From Candidatus Dadabacteria bacterium (GTDB lineage: Bacteria > Desulfobacterota_D > UBA1144 > Nemesobacterales > CSP1-2), in the NCBI GenBank assembly GCA_963805855.1, contig CAWDVW010000002.1:32001-96000 (forward strand): a stretch of DNA of 64,000 nucleotides, in the 5' to 3' direction. Positions within the stretch are counted from its first letter, which is position 1. Each line of letters begins with the position of its first letter. The notes under the pieces were generated by a model that saw only the letters and a list, made by a program, of their open reading frames with translations, ran no database searches and was not told the DNA's origin. Of this stretch, positions 46,972-50,692 are shown piece after piece. Position numbers and translations under genes: made by a program.

Positions 46972-47628
46972 TTATATATATTTATTGATGGGTACTTTCC
47001 GCAAGTCTGTTACAATCAAATCTGCCGGATAGTTTTGTTCATTTTGATCTCTGACTAAACCGATGCACTGCATTTTTGCCCGTTTTGCGGCTATCATACC
47101 GCTGACAGCGTCTTCAATAACAACGCAATTCTCAGGCTCAACAGATAATCTATTCGCGACTAACAGAAAGAGATCCGGTTCTGGCTTACCCTTGTCAACT
47201 TCTTCCGCACTCGCGATTGCATGGAATCTATGCCTAAGGCCCAATTCTGCCAACACCATCTCTATAAATGCAAGACGAGAGGCTGACCCTACGGCTAAAG
47301 GCAACCCAAAGTTTTCTAGTCGTTCAATGAATTCTCGGGTGCCTGGAATTTCTTTTACATTTCCTCTTACCAACTCGTCCATTATTCTCCATTTCTTTTC
47401 TACCAACTGCTCAATTTCGGGAATTTCTTTTTGCGCCTTGCTAAAAATTTCTCTGAACATTTCCTCATCTCCTACCCCTGCGTATCTCCTTGTTATTTCA
47501 TCTGGGTGCATCGCTATTCCATAACTCCTCAGCAATTCCGATTCTGTCTTTGCATGAATACCTTGCGTGTCGGAAATAACACCATCCATATCAAATATTA
47601 TTGCTTTTATTATTGGCTTCAAGCTCAT
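46972..47628 (-). CDS. HAD phosphatase (beta-PGM-like)
   Basis: IFDMDGV, GKPEPDLF and VIEDA motifs. Likely start MSLKPI at 47628. Confidence 0.85.
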   Translation of the reverse strand: MSLKPIIKAIIFDMDGVISDTQGIHAKTESELLRSYGIAMHPDEITRRYAGVGDEEMFREIFSKAQKEIPEIEQLVEKKWRIMDELVRGNVKEIPGTREFIERLENFGLPLAVGSASRLAFIEMVLAELGLRHRFHAIASAEEVDKGKPEPDLFLLVANRLSVEPENCVVIEDAVSGMIAAKRAKMQCIGLVRDQNEQNYPADLIVTDLRKVPINKYI

Positions 47629-47941
47629 ATTTTTATCCCGGGCCCGTGATCGCATAAAATTGCCTTCGGCAATCACGAAGCATAACACTTTTTGAGATGG
47701 ATCCCGGTGCCTGCTCCACATAAAAGCCTGACGGGTCAAATATTGATATTACATGAAAAATTTAACGTTGCTCATTTCAACATTATAAATTTGAACACAC
47801 TCGGGTAAGTGAATCAATCGATGAATCGATGTGAAAAACAAAACAAAGGGGACGTGATAGTATGAGAGGTGACTCCTCGTAATCTGTTAGACTTGGATTA
47901 ATGGCAAAAGGAGTTAATCCAAAACAGAAGGAGGAATCACC

Positions 47942-49000
47942 ATGAACTATGTCGGAGTAGATCTGCACAAAAAAACATCGTTATTCTACGTAGTAGATTC
48001 CAGGTGCAGGAAACTTGATAGTAGAAATGTAACAAATACTGAAGAGGAATTAAAGGGTTACTTTGAACAGATACCTAAACCGTATATACTCGCAGTAGAA
48101 TCCACCTACAATTGGTATTTCTTCGTAGATTTAGCCGAGCGATACGCCGAGCAGGTATATTTGGCCGACACATACGAGCTTAAGGCATTTGCTAAGAGAC
48201 ATAAGAAGACAGATAAGATAGATGCCAGGCTTATAGCTACAGTATTACAAAAAGGGTTTTCACCAGCTGTAACTATCCCAGATAAACAAACTCGAGAGAT
48301 TAGGGAATTACTCCGTTACAGGATAAAACTTGTACGGGATCGTACCCGCAATATCTCTCGACTCAAATCTTTATTGGACAGGTTAGGGTATCAAAGCACA
48401 GGAGACTTTACTACATATAAACATCTAAAGGCGATTGATACAAAAGACTTACCTGCCATCTACGCCTATATTATAAGAAGGCAATGTGAGCAAATTATTG
48501 AGTTAAACAAAAGGGTAGCAGAGATAGAAGAGCACTTTAATGCTATAGCCGAGGGGGATGAAGACATGCGGAATTTACTCACGATTAAAGGGATCGGGGC
48601 TTTTTCAGCTGCGTTAATAAAGACAGAAATAATAGACATATCCCGTTTCAGGACATTTAATCGACTGTGTGCATATGCGGGGTTGGCGCCGAGAGTGAGT
48701 GCAAGTGGAGGAAGGGTTTATCATGGGCCTTTAAACAAAAATCGTAGAAAGAATCTGCAGTGGATATTATTGGAAAATGTTCTTCATTTTATTAGAGCAT
48801 TACCTAAGTCTAAAGAGAAGTTTGATAGGATAGAAAGGCGCAAGGGATACAATACAGCCAGGGTAGCATTGGCAAGAGATATGTTGAAGATCATTTATCA
48901 TGTTTTGAAAGAAAGGAGGGCGTTTTATCACAGACCAGCAATAGATAAGAGTAAAAGTGGTAGAATTAGAATCCAGTCGGTGGCGGCTACTGCACTCTAA
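47942..49000 (+). CDS. IS110-family DEDD transposase/recombinase
   Basis: YVGVDLHKK, AVEST, KKTDKIDA, TIKGIG and YAGLAPRVSASGG motifs. Confidence 0.95.
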   Translation: MNYVGVDLHKKTSLFYVVDSRCRKLDSRNVTNTEEELKGYFEQIPKPYILAVESTYNWYFFVDLAERYAEQVYLADTYELKAFAKRHKKTDKIDARLIATVLQKGFSPAVTIPDKQTREIRELLRYRIKLVRDRTRNISRLKSLLDRLGYQSTGDFTTYKHLKAIDTKDLPAIYAYIIRRQCEQIIELNKRVAEIEEHFNAIAEGDEDMRNLLTIKGIGAFSAALIKTEIIDISRFRTFNRLCAYAGLAPRVSASGGRVYHGPLNKNRRKNLQWILLENVLHFIRALPKSKEKFDRIERRKGYNTARVALARDMLKIIYHVLKERRAFYHRPAIDKSKSGRIRIQSVAATAL

Positions 49001-49208
49001 AGGGTTTGAAGGGTTCAAGAAAACTATTGAATCGCTTCGCTGGACGCGATTAGTGAGTAGCCGCTTCCGAGATTATCATGCAGGTCCTAGAGAGTGGGAT
49101 GCTGCCGATAGGTGACTGAAGACTGGTAAAAGAAAATCCGGTGCTTCTTAAGATAGAGAAACCGACTGTGCTTAAACAATGTTTGAAAGTAGTTTAATAA
49201 AAAAACTA
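49001..49208 (+). ncRNA. Putative bridge/seek RNA of the IS1111-type element
   Basis: Non-coding 3' end containing GGACGCGAT and GCTGCCGAT, which match the two strands of the reconstructed target site. Confidence 0.6.
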
Positions 49209-49269
49209 GAGGAGTCACCTTATCTTCTATTGACTTTCACCTCTATAGGCAACCCTTTGATTCTTTAAA

Positions 49270-49346
49270 TGGCGCGCCCGGAGGGAGTCGAACCCCCGAC
49301 CTTCGGATTCGTAGTCCGGCGCTCTATCCATCTGAGCTACGGGCGC
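49270..49346 (-). tRNA. tRNA-Arg(ACG)
   Basis: GCGCCCGTAGCTCAG...CT-ACG-AA...GTTCGACTCC...GCGCCA. Confidence 0.95.
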
Positions 49347-49364
49347 ACAGGGTTATTAGAATAT

Positions 49365-49456
49365 TGGCGGAGAGGGTGGGATTCGAACCCACGAGGGAGT
49401 TTTACCCCCCTACTCGCTTAGCAGGCGAGTGCCTTCGGCCACTCGGCCACCTCTCC
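49365..49456 (-). tRNA. tRNA-Ser(GCT)
   Basis: GGAGAGGTGGCCGAG...CT-GCT-AA, long variable arm, CCA end. Confidence 0.95.
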
Positions 49457-49534
49457 CAATTATAACTTCTCGGAGAAAAAACTACTTAAACTATCAGTGG
49501 GTGTCAATGAGGCTTCTTGTAAAAGATTATCAGT

Positions 49535-49599
49535 AGTAGTGGCGACCTTTAGGTCGCCAATAACAAATAAATATGTGGAGGTCTAAAGACCTCCGCTAC
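49535..49599. repeat. GTAG-type REP doublet
   Basis: gtagtggcgacctttaggtcgcc and ggaggtctaaagacctccgctac. Related copy gtagcggaggacttcagtcctccac at 54348-54372. Confidence 0.7.
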
Positions 49600-49750
49600 C
49601 TTTAATGAAGCAGGCCCCTGAAAGTCGCGGAGGAGTATCGTATTAAATCAACGCCCAGAAAGTAGCAGGAGATTGCTTCGGGACTTTTTCAGTCCCTCGC
49701 AATGACGGTAGAAACTTCTAGCAAGCCAGCGGGAAGTCGATTGTTCAAAT

Positions 49751-50692
49751 TTACGGCAACTTCTTTCCCCTTATATTAGCTCGAATCAGGGAATACTTAG
49801 CGTTTCCTTTTGGAGATTTATGTTCATGATAAATAAGACCCACACCCTTCGCATAAACATCCTTAAACCAGAAAACATCATTTTCAGGAATTGTTACTAT
49901 CAGAAGGTCATAGAACTTACCAGCGGGTGTTGTAAATTCTGTTTTTTCGAAACTCTTTTGAACATCAGGGGTGTAGAATGTCTTTACTTCCTCGTCGGTT
50001 GAGACCAGTATGCCGCCTTCAGGGTCGATCCTCATGCCAACGTTTCTCTTCTCGAAGAAATCATCGAAAATCGACCAGCCGTCGGTTAGCGAAATAATTG
50101 ATTGAGTCTCCTCTTTAACATCTTTTCCAGACTCAATCCTGTATGTCCAAACGTTTCCCTTGTCAATAGGGAGATAATCTGGAAGACCCATGCCCTCAAA
50201 ACCTTTCAGCACATTTGAATATTCGGGGAGCTGCCCCATTCCAACGTGAGAAGGAATAGCAGATGTCTCGGAATCTTCAAAGAACTCGCATTTTAAATTC
50301 GTCACATTCGGATGATCAAGTTTTGCAATTAAATAGTGGGACGAGTTTGCTTTCTCCTTATTAGATCCTTCCTTAGTAAAACCAACCCTGTAACCTATTT
50401 CAACGACATTTTCTTCTTTGTTTTCAACCTCTGAAATATCAATATTATTCCCCTTATTACCTGGTTGAATTATCAGAAAAGCAATCTCTTTATCGAAATC
50501 AACCCTCGGAATTGTTTCCTTAATACCCAGGACACTCCAAATCTTTTGGAGTTGACTTGAGTCTCTGATAACTTGATTCTGGCTATTTTGCTGAATCCCT
50601 GTCGCACCTTTTGAGAGTACGGAGTAGTTCAGATTAGAAGAAAGATTTAAGACTGCAAAAATCATTAATATTAAATTTACGGGCATACACAA
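49751..50692 (-). CDS. Exported hypothetical protein, two-domain
   Basis: Long ORF with N-terminal hydrophobic segment and AGGAGG-like RBS. Contains PRVDFDKE and YLPIDKGNVWTY..TPAGKF..YAKGVG. Confidence 0.7.
   Translation of the reverse strand: MCMPVNLILMIFAVLNLSSNLNYSVLSKGATGIQQNSQNQVIRDSSQLQKIWSVLGIKETIPRVDFDKEIAFLIIQPGNKGNNIDISEVENKEENVVEIGYRVGFTKEGSNKEKANSSHYLIAKLDHPNVTNLKCEFFEDSETSAIPSHVGMGQLPEYSNVLKGFEGMGLPDYLPIDKGNVWTYRIESGKDVKEETQSIISLTDGWSIFDDFFEKRNVGMRIDPEGGILVSTDEEVKTFYTPDVQKSFEKTEFTTPAGKFYDLLIVTIPENDVFWFKDVYAKGVGLIYHEHKSPKGNAKYSLIRANIRGKKLP

What the first reader, a model, noticed from the sequence alone, without database searches (positions are those of the whole stretch)
49001..49220. 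Readable target guides in the IS non-coding end (bridge/seek RNA)
Seen: GGACGCGAT (49042-50) matches the left target GGACGTGAT at 8/9, and GCTGCCGAT (49101-09) matches the bottom-strand right target GTTGCCTAT at 7/9. Knowledge: IS110/IS1111 recombinases are guided by such an RNA. Inference: an intact programmable recombinase-RNA pair whose preferred target may differ slightly from this site. I could not identify the donor guides confidently.
Basis: partly seen in the sequence, partly recalled or inferred. Interest (0 to 1): 0.7.

Follow-up and report, generated by a model that had tools for sequence, protein, structure and literature searches.

The report
IS1111-type insertion sequence with bridge RNA

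Summary
The window holds a 1395-bp IS1111-type element (47855-49249). It has a DEDD transposase (47942-49000), 11-bp subterminal inverted repeats, and a conserved RNA of about 195 nt (about 48974-49168) that starts inside the last codons of the transposase gene.

The first, GGACGCGAT at 49042-50, is the real left-target guide. It sits on the 3' strand of a conserved internal loop and covaries with the left flank in 49 distinct homologous loci (0 of 20,000 permutations reach the observed match).

The second, GCTGCCGAT at 49101-09, is not a guide. Four of its bases form the 3' strand of a covarying hairpin, and a 7/9 match arises by chance about 20% of the time. The right-target guide is more likely AAAGGGTT at 48999-49006, which overlaps the stop codon and is complementary to AACCCTTT at 49251-58.

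Candidate donor guides are ATAGGTGA (49108-15) and AUUAUCA (49072-78).

The target is a host REP-like hairpin, AAAGGG-GACGCAA-CCCTTT. Seven unoccupied compatible copies lie elsewhere in the genome, two of them flanking an IS200-like (Y1) transposase gene.

Joining the element's ends would give TTGACT-N17-TAGTAT.

Verdict: a new member of a known kind. No expression or activity data exist.

The parts
47844..47854 (+). Left half of the target (CAAAGGGGACG). This is the left arm and the first loop bases of the interrupted REP-like hairpin. GGACG (47850-54) is the part read by the left-target guide.
   Evidence: The same left flank occurs at two other independent insertions: L002 and L187.
47855..47857 (+). 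TGA, the donor-type copy of the crossover (core) trinucleotide at the left junction.
   Evidence: TGA precedes the -10 box in 39 of 41 distinct left junctions. Unoccupied targets have CAA, CGA or CTA here.
47858..47863 (+). TAGTAT, a -10-like hexamer at the left end and half of the predicted circle-junction promoter.
   Evidence: Homologues have TAATAT, TAGTAT or TACTAT at the same place.
47868..47878 (+). Left subterminal inverted repeat, GGTGACTCCTC.
   Evidence: In the leader fold it pairs with 47931-41.
47931..47941 (+). GAGGAATCACC, which overlaps the Shine-Dalgarno sequence and is complementary to the left inverted repeat. It probably sequesters the ribosome-binding site.
   Evidence: The fold of 47858-47950 gives -32.4 kcal/mol with z = -5.77. 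The pairing partners change together in homologues.
47942..49000 (+). Transposase/recombinase gene, 352 aa. Domains are DEDD_Tnp_IS110 and Transposase_20. D7, E53, D91, D94 and the GLAP....SG motif (S255) are present.
   Evidence: Weak similarity to the ISCro4 and IS621 transposases in the PDB.
48974..49168 (+). Predicted bridge/seek RNA. P0 is 48974-81 with 49161-68; P1 is 48982-96 with 49052-65; H1 is 49008-18 with 49027-38; H3 is 49080-89 with 49095-49105; H4 is 49118-26 with 49138-47.
   Evidence: The single-sequence minimum-energy fold is -73.2 kcal/mol with z = -3.63. RNAalifold was run on 59 sequences. Of 46 pairs, 94.1% of cells are paired against 81.5% in shuffles, and 33 pairs show compensatory change. 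The transcript ends are not known.
48999..49006 (+). Right-target guide (RTG), AAAGGGUU, on the 5' strand of the target-binding loop. It overlaps the stop codon (48998-49000) and is complementary to the top strand at 49251-58.
   Evidence: homologues have GGGGTC at the same position against flank GACCCC, and L034 has AGGGTC against GACCCT. An 8/8 match here has P = 0.0086 by chance.
49042..49050 (+). Left-target guide (LTG), GGACGCGA(U), on the 3' strand of the target-binding loop. It has the same sense as the left target plus core, so it pairs with the bottom strand.
49069..49079 (+). Candidate right-donor guide (RDG). AUUAUCA (49072-78) is complementary to the top strand TGATAGT at the left end (47855-61), with one U.G pair.
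   Evidence: Based on its position 5' of H3 and on complementarity. The core-proximal part is invariant, so covariation cannot test it.
49101..49109 (+). It consists of G49101 (a bulge), CTGC 49102-05 (3' strand of hairpin H3), C49106, and GAT 49107-09 (G49107 in the linker, AT 49108-09 the first two bases of the left-donor guide). It is not a target guide.
49108..49116 (+). Left-donor guide (LDG), AUAGGUGA(C). It has the same sense as the right end plus core (ATAGG + TGA in relatives; ATAGGCAA at 49245-52 here, where both differences are wobble-compatible).
   Evidence: At the one variable position, 19 of 24 distinct pairs are identical, 5 are rG.dT wobble and 0 are incompatible. The loci with ATTGG are shown.
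49209..49219 (+). Right subterminal inverted repeat, GAGGAGTCACC.
49230..49235 (+). TTGACT, a -35-like hexamer facing outward. It lies 17 nt from the end of the core, so end-joining would give TTGACT-N17-TAGTAT.
49245..49249 (+). Last bases of the element (ATAGG), the left-donor sequence read by the LDG.
49250..49259 (+). CAA (the target-type core copy) followed by CCCTTTG (the right half of the target and right arm of the REP-like hairpin).
   Evidence: The closest right end with a normal core is L191...CTCTATAGGT GA CCC.
49270..49346 (-). tRNA-Arg(ACG). The interrupted hairpin lies 10 nt beyond its 3' end.

Best explanation
Positions 47855-49249 are an IS1111-type insertion sequence. Its DEDD recombinase is guided by an RNA encoded at the 3' end of the element (about 48974-49168).

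The RNA folds into a closing stem (P0) and a long stem (P1). P1 carries an internal loop, the target-binding loop, around hairpin H1. Beyond it lies a multiloop holding hairpins H3 and H4.

The loop around H1 reads the target. [quoted passage not shown] The single strands on either side of H3 read the element's own joined ends. [quoted passage not shown] The target is a host REP-like hairpin, AAAGGG-GACGCAA-CCCTTT, and the element sits in its loop. Excision as a circle would create a TTGACT-N17-TAGTAT promoter that drives the transposase and, by read-through, the RNA.

Shown here: the family assignment, the conserved covarying RNA fold, the guide-flank covariation for the left-target and left-donor guides, and the existence of unoccupied targets.

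Inferred: the right-target guide (moderate covariation), the right-donor guide (complementarity only), the promoter, the RNA ends, and all activity.
For: **Protein.**
- Pfam finds PF01548 (E = 7.5e-23) and PF02371 (E = 9.3e-17).
- D7, E53, D91, D94 and S255 in GLAPxVSxS are invariant in 20 aligned homologues.

**RNA structure.**
- On 59 sequences, 94.1% of cells are paired against 81.5 +/- 0.4% in shuffles.
- 33 of 46 pairs show compensatory change.
- Slid controls give at most 48.4% paired.
- The single-sequence fold reproduces the same architecture, with z = -3.63.

**Left-target guide against left flank.**
- 250 of 294 positions are identical in 49 distinct pairs, against a permuted mean of 195.6.
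- 0 of 20,000 permutations reach the observed value, with or without the window.
- 31 of the 44 mismatches are G.T or U.G compatible.

**Right-target guide against right flank.**
- 205 of 276 positions are identical against a permuted mean of 195.1; 191 of 20,000 permutations reach it.
- The window changes positions 1, 6, 7 and 8 of the 8-nt guide (AACCCTTT against the relatives' GACCCCnn), and all eight match its own flank.
- L034 shows a matching single change.

**Left-donor guide.** At its variable position, 19 distinct pairs are identical, 5 are wobble and 0 are incompatible, out of 24.

**Target.** The predicted empty site, GGACGC(A/G)ACCCTTT, occurs unoccupied 7 times in the same genome. 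Two copies flank a Y1_Tnp gene (E = 6.7e-11).

**Independent insertions.** Three insertions share the left junction AAAGGGGACG-TGA-TAGTAT with different sequence further out.

**Guide order.** The top-strand guide lies 5' of the bottom-strand guide. Siddiquee et al. 2024 report this order for IS1111 seekRNAs (PMC11187229; abstract and sections 6, 8, 9, 10, 13 read, plus search passages from sections 7 and 12). A donor site in a multiloop is what Durrant et al. 2024 note for IS1111 (PMC11208160, passages).
Against: - No RNA data exist. No listed sequencing run is RNA, so expression, RNA ends and protein binding are untested.
- Covariation for the right-target guide is modest once the window is left out: 695 of 20,000 permutations reach the observed value. 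One locus (L186) has a guide change that its flank does not match.
- The right-donor guide rests on an invariant 5-7 nt complementarity. Positions further into the left end do not track the guide in several loci, for example L165/L167 and L157/L158/L160.
- P0 is weaker than the other helices, at 80-84% paired.
- Homologues are related to one another, and the tool itself warns that shuffle controls overstate significance for related sequences.
- All junctions were found by my own regular expressions. Loci with atypical ends are therefore missing: 73 of 105 sources gave a target-loop hit.
- The genome holds only one full copy and one truncated copy, so current activity is unproven.
Confidence: 0.85

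Rival explanations
1. One reading: the two target guides are 49042-50 (left target) and 49101-09 (bottom strand of the right target), both inside 49001-49220.
For: Both matches exist in the sequence, at 8/9 and 7/9. The first is confirmed as a guide.
Against: - A 7/9 match has a chance probability of about 0.20.
- 49102-05 pair with 49080-83 in hairpin H3, which is 97.7% paired with 6 of 8 pairs covarying.
- The segment is GCTGCC or GCCGCC in nearly all 59 aligned sequences, although their right flank (GACCCC) differs from the window's.
- A better candidate, an 8/8 match at a homologous position that changes together with the flank, lies at 48999-49006.
Confidence: 0.05
2. The conserved 3' region is not a guide RNA. 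It could be a regulatory or structural untranslated region, or a set of DNA sites bound by the transposase. Under this view the resemblance to the flanks reflects a shared DNA motif preference or internal copies of the target.
For: No transcript has been observed. Most relatives share one target consensus, A(A/G)G(A/G)yyT-GA-CCCC, so much of the guide-flank identity is constant.
Against: - Compensatory base-pair changes in 33 of 46 pairs point to a structured RNA.
- The variable positions of the left guide track the flank (0 of 20,000 permutations). Mismatches are biased towards G.T and U.G (31 of 44), which is a signature of RNA-DNA pairing and not of DNA identity.
- In L044 and L047 the ORF stops earlier, yet the segments corresponding to P1 and the right-target guide are kept downstream of the stop.
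- The mechanism has been shown experimentally for relatives (PMC11187229; PMC11208160).
Confidence: 0.05
3. The element is a dead relic. The architecture is as described, but this copy can no longer move. One possible reason is that its right junction carries CAA instead of TGA; another is that the RNA is not made from the integrated copy.
For: The genome has one full copy and one truncated copy. The linear scan found two promoter-like sites in 47700-49400 (expected 3.7 by chance): one on the + strand inside the gene (48063-48090) and one on the - strand. None lies upstream of the gene or just upstream of the RNA. No contig from four metagenome runs joins across the element or shows a circle junction.
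Against: The ORF is full length and all invariant residues are present. All RNA helices are intact. Seven compatible empty targets remain in the genome. Assembled contigs cannot show rare circles or excisions.
Confidence: 0.25

Closest known systems
IS1111-family seekRNA elements ISEc11, ISPa11 and ISKpn4 (Siddiquee et al. 2024, PMC11187229)
   Same: - A DEDD transposase of about 340-350 aa with the GL-P----SG motif.
- Subterminal inverted repeats.
- A long non-coding region downstream of the transposase gene that encodes the RNA.
- The top-strand match lies 5' of the bottom-strand match, and the two overlap in the target.
- Insertion without duplication into a short specific site, often a foldable one (REP for ISPa11, attC for ISKpn4).
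- A promoter formed at the circle junction.
   Different: - Protein similarity to characterised members is low. The only PDB hits are ISCro4 (E = 4e-7) and IS621 (E = 5e-6).
- The relatives found come from uncultured bacteria labelled Scalindua, Omnitrophota and others.
- The RNA's 5' stems and right-target guide overlap the last codons and the stop codon of the transposase gene. I could not see whether the published seekRNAs do the same, because figures and supplements are not held.
- Donor-reading segments are proposed here. The parts of that paper I read describe only target matches.
IS621 bridge RNA (Durrant et al. 2024, PMC11208160; Hiraizumi et al. 2024, PMC11208158, seen only as a search listing)
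   Same: Four guide segments (left and right target, left and right donor). Left guides pair with the bottom strand and right guides with the top strand. The core is included in all four. The target loop is an internal loop around a hairpin.
   Different: - The RNA is at the right end instead of the left.
- The order of guides within each loop is reversed (right guide 5').
- The donor site lies in a multiloop between two hairpins and not in a closed internal loop.
- The core is (T)GA, not CT.
- The inverted repeats are 11 bp long.
ISPpu9 and ISPpu10 of Pseudomonas putida (PMC12288879, abstract; bioRxiv 10.64898/2026.03.19.712850, abstract)
   Same: IS110-family elements that insert into repetitive extragenic palindromes or stem-loop targets. 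ISPpu10 forms a hybrid junction promoter.
   Different: The host lineage and target sequence differ. Whether the hairpin shape of the target contributes to recognition here, as reported for ISPpu10, was not tested.

Membership tests
IS1111 group of the IS110 family | DEDD (RuvC-like) transposase with PF01548 plus PF02371 | tested here: met
   E = 7.5e-23 and 9.3e-17, both above the curated cut-offs.
IS1111 group of the IS110 family | Catalytic D-E-D-D residues and the GL-P----S(T)G motif | tested here: met
   D7, E53, D91, D94, G247, L248, P250 and S255 are invariant in 20 sequences. The window has S255-G256. Assigning these as the catalytic residues is by analogy (PMC11187229, section 6).
IS1111 group of the IS110 family | Subterminal inverted repeats of 7-17 bp | tested here: met
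   An 11-bp perfect repeat lies at 47868-78 and 49209-19, which is 13 and 30 bp inside the ends.
IS1111 group of the IS110 family | The longer non-coding region lies downstream of the transposase gene | tested here: met
   The left end is 87 nt (47855-47941). The right end is 249 nt (49001-49249).
IS1111 group of the IS110 family | Site-specific insertion without target duplication, with uninterrupted targets identifiable | tested here: met
   Joining the flanks gives CAAAGGGGACG + CAACCCTTTG. GGACGCAACCCTTT occurs 6 times unoccupied, and the CGA variant once.
IS1111 group of the IS110 family | A circular intermediate with a junction promoter | tested here: inconclusive
   The sequence predicts TTGACT-N17-TAGTAT, and relatives predict TTGACA-N17-TAATAT (the 17-nt spacing was built into my pattern). 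No circle junction was seen in the contigs of 4 runs. This needs PCR.
seekRNA / bridge RNA | A structured RNA from the non-coding end, supported by covariation | tested here: met
seekRNA / bridge RNA | Loop segments that covary with the target half-sites on opposite strands and overlap at the core | tested here: met
   The left-target guide is strong (0 of 20,000). The right-target guide is moderate (191 of 20,000). The two overlap at the G/A-A of the core.
seekRNA / bridge RNA | Loop segments complementary to the element's own joined ends (donor) | tested here: inconclusive
   The left-donor guide is supported at its one variable position. The right-donor guide is invariant and cannot be tested by covariation.
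seekRNA / bridge RNA | The RNA is expressed, binds the recombinase and is required for movement | not testable with these tools
   No RNA run is listed.
Rfam families | A match to a curated RNA model | tested here: not met
   Searching 47600-49600 at E up to 1 gave 6 matches, all in the tRNA region 49272-49470. None falls inside the element.

The most novel reading that the evidence does not exclude
This element may be a natural, fully documented retargeting event within one bridge-RNA family, and three features may not have been described before.

(1) The right-target guide is written in the last two sense codons and the stop codon of the recombinase gene. Relatives read ...GGG GTC TGA; this copy reads ...TAA AGG GTT TGA. 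Retargeting therefore rewrote and shortened the protein's C-terminus.

(2) The two target guides disagree at one core position (the left guide reads CGA, the right guide reads AA). Through one G.T or U.G wobble each, the RNA can accept both the CAA and the CGA variants of the host REP.

(3) The donor core (TGA) and target core (CAA) differ, so the junctions record which DNA supplied each core copy: donor-type on the left and target-type on the right. This implies a crossover region of at least 3 nt and a fixed strand bias.
Probability: 0.45. Interest if true: 0.55.

Novelty: new member of a known kind. Interest (0 to 1): 0.45.

Why it matters
Bridge and seek RNAs are a recently discovered class of programmable recombination system. 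Most detailed knowledge comes from IS621 and a few enterobacterial or pseudomonad IS1111 members.

This locus adds a well-resolved IS1111-type example from an uncultured lineage. All four guide positions are proposed, the ends are exact and the natural target is identified.

About 100 relatives mostly aim at one site (AGGTCT-GA-CCCC), whereas this copy has been redirected to a host REP hairpin. That contrast gives a natural test set for the rules of guide length, wobble tolerance and core choice in IS1111-type RNAs.

It also shows that a guide can overlap the recombinase coding sequence, which matters when such systems are re-engineered.

For genome annotation, it corrects the element's boundaries and flags a REP/Y1-transposase repeat family in this genome.

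Tried and rejected
- **Expression.** No RNA holder is listed among the 24 runs returned.
- **Empty site or circle in metagenomes.** Contigs of runs X1-X4 were laid on 47300-49800. They are short and of low depth. Some bridge the left junction (X1 record 2) and reach 49258 on the right (X1 record 6). No contig joins across the element and none shows a circle junction.
- **Closest protein relative.** L118 (91% aa identity) loses similarity downstream of residue 338, so it gave no RNA or right junction.
- **Taxonomic relatives.** 21 of 61 genomes, counting the window's own, have an IS110-family hit. Identity is at most 31% outside the window's own genome, which is useless for covariation.
- **Guide-to-guide pairing.** RNAalifold paired the right-target guide with the left-target guide, and UCAU with GUGA around H3. 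None of these 10 pairs has a compensatory change. Such pairing is expected simply because both guides of a loop contain the core, so I left them out of the model.
- **GGUGAC (49111-16) as a reader of the inverted repeat GTCACC.** Rejected. The repeat varies among relatives (GAGGAATCATC, GGGGAATTGCC and others) while GGUGAC is invariant.
- **The segment after H4 (49148-60, UUAAGAUAGAGAA) as a donor guide.** It shares only GATAG with the left end and does not track it in relatives. Its role remains unassigned.
- **Extending the right-donor guide beyond about 7 nt.** Not supported.
- **Papers.** One paper search with a badly formed term failed; I read section 8 instead. Supplementary files and figures could not be seen. 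They may show where the published seekRNAs start relative to the stop codon and whether donor matches were drawn.
Full report
**1. What is there**

The ORF at 47942-49000 (+) encodes 352 aa. Pfam finds DEDD_Tnp_IS110 (PF01548, E = 7.5e-23, residues 4-147) and Transposase_20 (PF02371, E = 9.3e-17, residues 210-293).

An alignment with 19 relatives of 54-70% identity shows D7, E53, D91 and D94 invariant. The motif G247-L248-x-P250-x-x-x-x-S255 is also invariant. It fits the GL-P----S(T)G motif described for IS1111 transposases (PMC11187229, section 6).

The only solved structures with detectable sequence similarity are the ISCro4 transposase (9t56, E = 4.2e-7) and the IS621 transposase (8wt6, E = 5.2e-6).

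An 11-bp perfect inverted repeat, GGTGACTCCTC / GAGGAGTCACC, lies at 47868-78 and 49209-19. tRNA-Arg(ACG) (49270-49346) and tRNA-Ser(GCT) (49365-49456) lie just to the right on the minus strand. Rfam matches nothing inside the element: the 6 matches at E up to 1 all fall in the tRNA region.

**2.

Both matches are real. In shuffles of 49001-49220, a match of at least 8/9 to the left 9-mer appears with P = 0.031. A match of at least 7/9 to the right 9-mer appears with P = 0.20. Neither is decisive alone, so I turned to homologues.

**3. Homologues**

Taxonomic relatives were no help. Of 61 genomes, 21 (counting the window's own) have an IS110-family hit, but identity outside the window's own genome is at most 31%.

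Scans of genome contigs and metagenome contigs gave 87 and 206 relatives, of which the best 80 each were kept. About 100 of these have 50-70% protein identity. They come from assemblies labelled Scalindua, Omnitrophota, Brocadiaceae, Melioribacteraceae and others.

The window's genome has one full copy and one 5' fragment (G000:C5:482070-482463, 92% identity).

**4. The RNA**

The region downstream of the gene is strongly conserved, and the conservation starts upstream of the stop codon.

On 59 distinct sequences (alignment A2), RNAalifold predicts 46 pairs, 26 of them with compensatory change. These 59 are the window plus 58 of the 72 loci that gave a target-loop hit. The other 14 were duplicates or too close to a contig end.

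I scored a structure of my own. It used four of those helices (P1, H1, H3 and H4, with the base of H1 re-registered and one pair added to H4), left out the guide-to-guide pairs, and added a closing stem P0. The results are:

| Measure | Result |
|---|---|
| Cells paired | 94.1% |
| Cells paired in 500 shuffles | 81.5 +/- 0.4% (0 of 500 reach the observed value) |
| Pairs changed on both sides | 33 of 46 (22.4 in shuffles) |
| Cells paired with partners slid by 1-3 columns | 34.8-48.4% |

Per helix, P1 is 97.5% paired (9 of 13 pairs covary), H1 92.7% (7 of 10), H3 97.7% (6 of 8), H4 97.2% (5 of 8) and P0 80-84%. The tool warns that related sequences can beat shuffles without any structure. The slid controls and the number of pair types argue against that here.

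The window's own sequence 48968-49175 folds into the same architecture at -73.2 kcal/mol with z = -3.63.

Window coordinates of the helices:

| Helix | 5' strand | 3' strand |
|---|---|---|
| P0 | 48974-81 | 49161-68 |
| P1 | 48982-96 | 49052-65 |
| H1 | 49008-18 | 49027-38 |
| H3 | 49080-89 | 49095-49105 |
| H4 | 49118-26 | 49138-47 |

P0 and P1 use the codons for the C-terminal ...IQSVAATAL. In L044 and L047 the ORF ends earlier, yet the segments corresponding to P1 and the right-target guide are kept downstream of the stop. This indicates that the constraint acts at the RNA level.

**5. Guides**

Definitions follow Durrant et al. (PMC11208160, passages). Left guides pair with the bottom strand, right guides pair with the top strand, and the core is included in each.

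In 56 loci with both the guide and the left junction (49 distinct pairs), 250 of 294 variable positions equal the flank, against 195.6 on re-pairing. None of 20,000 permutations reaches this value, and the same holds without the window (245 of 288). Of the 44 mismatches, 31 would be rU.dG or rG.dT. Clear co-changes are L041 (GACTCT against flank CACTCT), L127 (GGAGTT = GGAGTT), L119 (AGGTGT = AGGTGT) and the window itself.

*(b) Right-target guide, 48999-49006 (AAAGGGUU), on the 5' strand of the same loop, directly before H1.* Relatives have GGGGUC there, and their right flank reads GACCCC. L034 has AGGGUC against GACCCT. The window has AAAGGGUU against AACCCTTT (49251-58), an 8/8 match with chance P = 0.0086. 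Over 46 distinct pairs, 205 of 276 positions match against 195.1 on re-pairing. This is reached by 191 of 20,000 permutations, or 695 of 20,000 without the window. Support is therefore moderate. L186 has a guide change that its flank does not match.

*(c) Left-donor guide, 49108-15 (AUAGGUGA), 3' of H3.* It has the same sense as the element's right end plus core (...ATAGG-TGA). Its one variable position gives 19 identical, 5 rG.dT and 0 incompatible among 24 distinct pairs. Loci with AUUGG in the RNA have ATTGG at the end.

*(d) Candidate right-donor guide, 49072-78 (AUUAUCA), 5' of H3.* It is complementary to TGATAGT at the left end, with one U.G pair. The core-proximal UAUCA is invariant, so covariation cannot test it. 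Positions deeper into the end do not track the guide.

In both loops the right guide is 5' and the left guide is 3'. This is the reverse of IS621 and is the order Siddiquee et al. report for IS1111. The donor site lies in a multiloop, as Durrant et al. remark for many IS1111 members.

**6.

The segment 49101-09 breaks down as follows. G49101 is a bulge. CTGC (49102-05) is the 3' strand of H3. C49106 and G49107 are linker bases. AT (49108-09) is the start of the left-donor guide.

It reads GCTGCC or GCCGCC in nearly all 59 sequences although their right flank differs from the window's. It is not a target guide.

**7. Ends, target and core**

Relatives fix the ends:

- Left: ...LT-TGA-TA(A/G)TAT...
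- Right: ...TTGAC(N)-N14-TGA-RT

Joining the ends would give TTGACT-N17-TAGTAT here and TTGACA-N17-TAATAT in relatives. The 17-nt spacing was built into my search pattern, so exceptions would have been missed. A junction promoter is a known feature of this family (PMC11187229, section 7 passages).

The window's flanks join to CAAAGGGGACG + CAACCCTTTG. This is a hairpin with stem CAAAGGG/CCCTTTG.

A pattern search of the whole genome finds GGACGCAACCCTTT unoccupied six times: C5:2667, C5:174082, C7:293041, C7:293783(-), C8:3349 and C8:4089(-). The CGA variant occurs once (C5:401841(-)). CTA and other variants also occur.

On C7 two inverted copies lie about 740 bp apart and flank an apparently frameshifted gene. 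Its first ORF matches Y1_Tnp (IS200-like, PF01797, E = 6.7e-11). That arrangement is typical of REP sequences with their associated tyrosine transposase; the name is recalled from general knowledge. Insertion of this IS family into REP sequences is known (abstract of PMC12288879; reference list of PMC11208160).

The target-binding loop fits the 14-nt site GGACGC(A/G)ACCCTTT at every position. For CAA the left guide has one rG.dT pair. For CGA the right guide has one rU.dG pair.

It disappears against the uninterrupted target, which has C.

Three independent insertions all read GGACG-TGA-TAGTAT on the left: the window, L002 and L187. The window reads ATAGG-CAA-CCC on the right. Its nearest relative with a right end, L191, reads ATAGGT-GA-CCC.

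Across loci, the left trinucleotide is TGA in 39 of 41 distinct junctions. At least one of the two exceptions is a false pattern hit. The right trinucleotide is TGA in 54 of 60. The exceptions are CAA, CGA, TGG twice, TTG and one false hit.

My inference is that the left junction inherits the donor's core and the right junction inherits the target's. This is expected if the top strands are exchanged 5' of a core of at least 3 nt and the heteroduplex is then fixed by replication. Top-strand-first exchange is described for IS621. Point mutation, or a T-containing target variant (GGACGTAACCC exists at C5:336687(-)), remains a possible alternative.

**8. Other regulation**

The leader 47858-47950 folds at -32.4 kcal/mol with z = -5.77. 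The left inverted repeat pairs with GAGGAATCACC, which overlaps the Shine-Dalgarno sequence, and the two arms change together in relatives. This probably blocks translation of read-through transcripts.

In the linear element the scan found two promoter-like sites in 47700-49400 (3.7 expected by chance). One is on the + strand inside the gene (48063-48090) and one is on the - strand. None lies upstream of the gene or just before the RNA. That is consistent with the RNA being made from the transposase transcript, as proposed for ISEc11.

**9. What is not shown**

No RNA run holds the locus. Metagenome contigs show neither an empty site nor a circle. Expression, RNA ends, protein binding and mobility are all inferred.

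**10. Verdict**

This is an apparently intact IS1111-type recombinase-RNA pair. It is a new member of a known kind, retargeted relative to its family from AGGTCT-GA-CCCC to a host REP hairpin.

I searched the paper library for 'IS1111' + 'bridge RNA' + 'stop codon' (2 papers; the one listed is not on this point) and for 'IS1111' + 'REP' + 'RAYT' (1 unrelated paper). I found no description of a guide overlapping the recombinase stop codon. Figures and supplements of the key papers were not available to me.

Noticed in passing
G000:C7:293041-293801 (locus L194 342-1102); also G000:C8:3349-4089 and C5:2667: The target hairpin AAAGGGGACGCAACCCTTT occurs as inverted pairs about 740 bp apart. They flank an IS200-like Y1 transposase gene that appears to be split into three ORFs of 109, 83 and 65 aa. 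This looks like a REP/Y1-transposase unit present in several copies.
   Followed up: partly
G000:C5:482070-482463 (L002): A second copy of the element, 92% identical, is cut off after about 300 bp of the transposase gene. It sits at another copy of the same hairpin's left half (TTAAAGGGGACG-TGA-TAGTAT).
   Followed up: partly
window 47858-47950: The left inverted repeat pairs with the ribosome-binding region in a very stable leader hairpin (-32.4 kcal/mol, z = -5.77). The element therefore carries three copies of the repeat motif: the left repeat, its complement at the Shine-Dalgarno sequence, and the right repeat.
   Followed up: partly
right flanks of L034, L035, L038, L039, L049, L056, L121, L123, L172: The 10-18 nt just outside the right end are often tandemly repeated. 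Examples are TGACCCTGTAAACTT twice in L034 and an 18-nt unit three times in L038. Six of 52 distinct right flanks have a second GACCC 10-16 nt downstream, where about 1.6 would be expected by chance. The window copy lacks this. The cause is unknown.
   Followed up: partly
G000:C2:116099-117115, C7:152421-153437, C7:641179-642195: Three matches with identical scores (E 1.8e-30, 28% identity to this one), each in a 363-aa open frame, look like copies of another IS110-family transposase in the same genome. Presumably this is a second, multi-copy element with its own RNA.
   Followed up: no
window 48974-49000: The last nine codons of the transposase (IQSVAATAL) double as the 5' strands of RNA stems P0 and P1. 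Relatives change these codons together with the 3' strands, for example A-T to A-P with AGTAG to AGGAG.
   Followed up: yes
G000:C5:174082, C5:401841(-), C6:104769, C2:263701: Several copies of the hairpin are followed within about 10 nt by a second shared motif (CAGGATGCA...GATGCA). The REP may therefore be part of a longer repeat unit.
   Followed up: no
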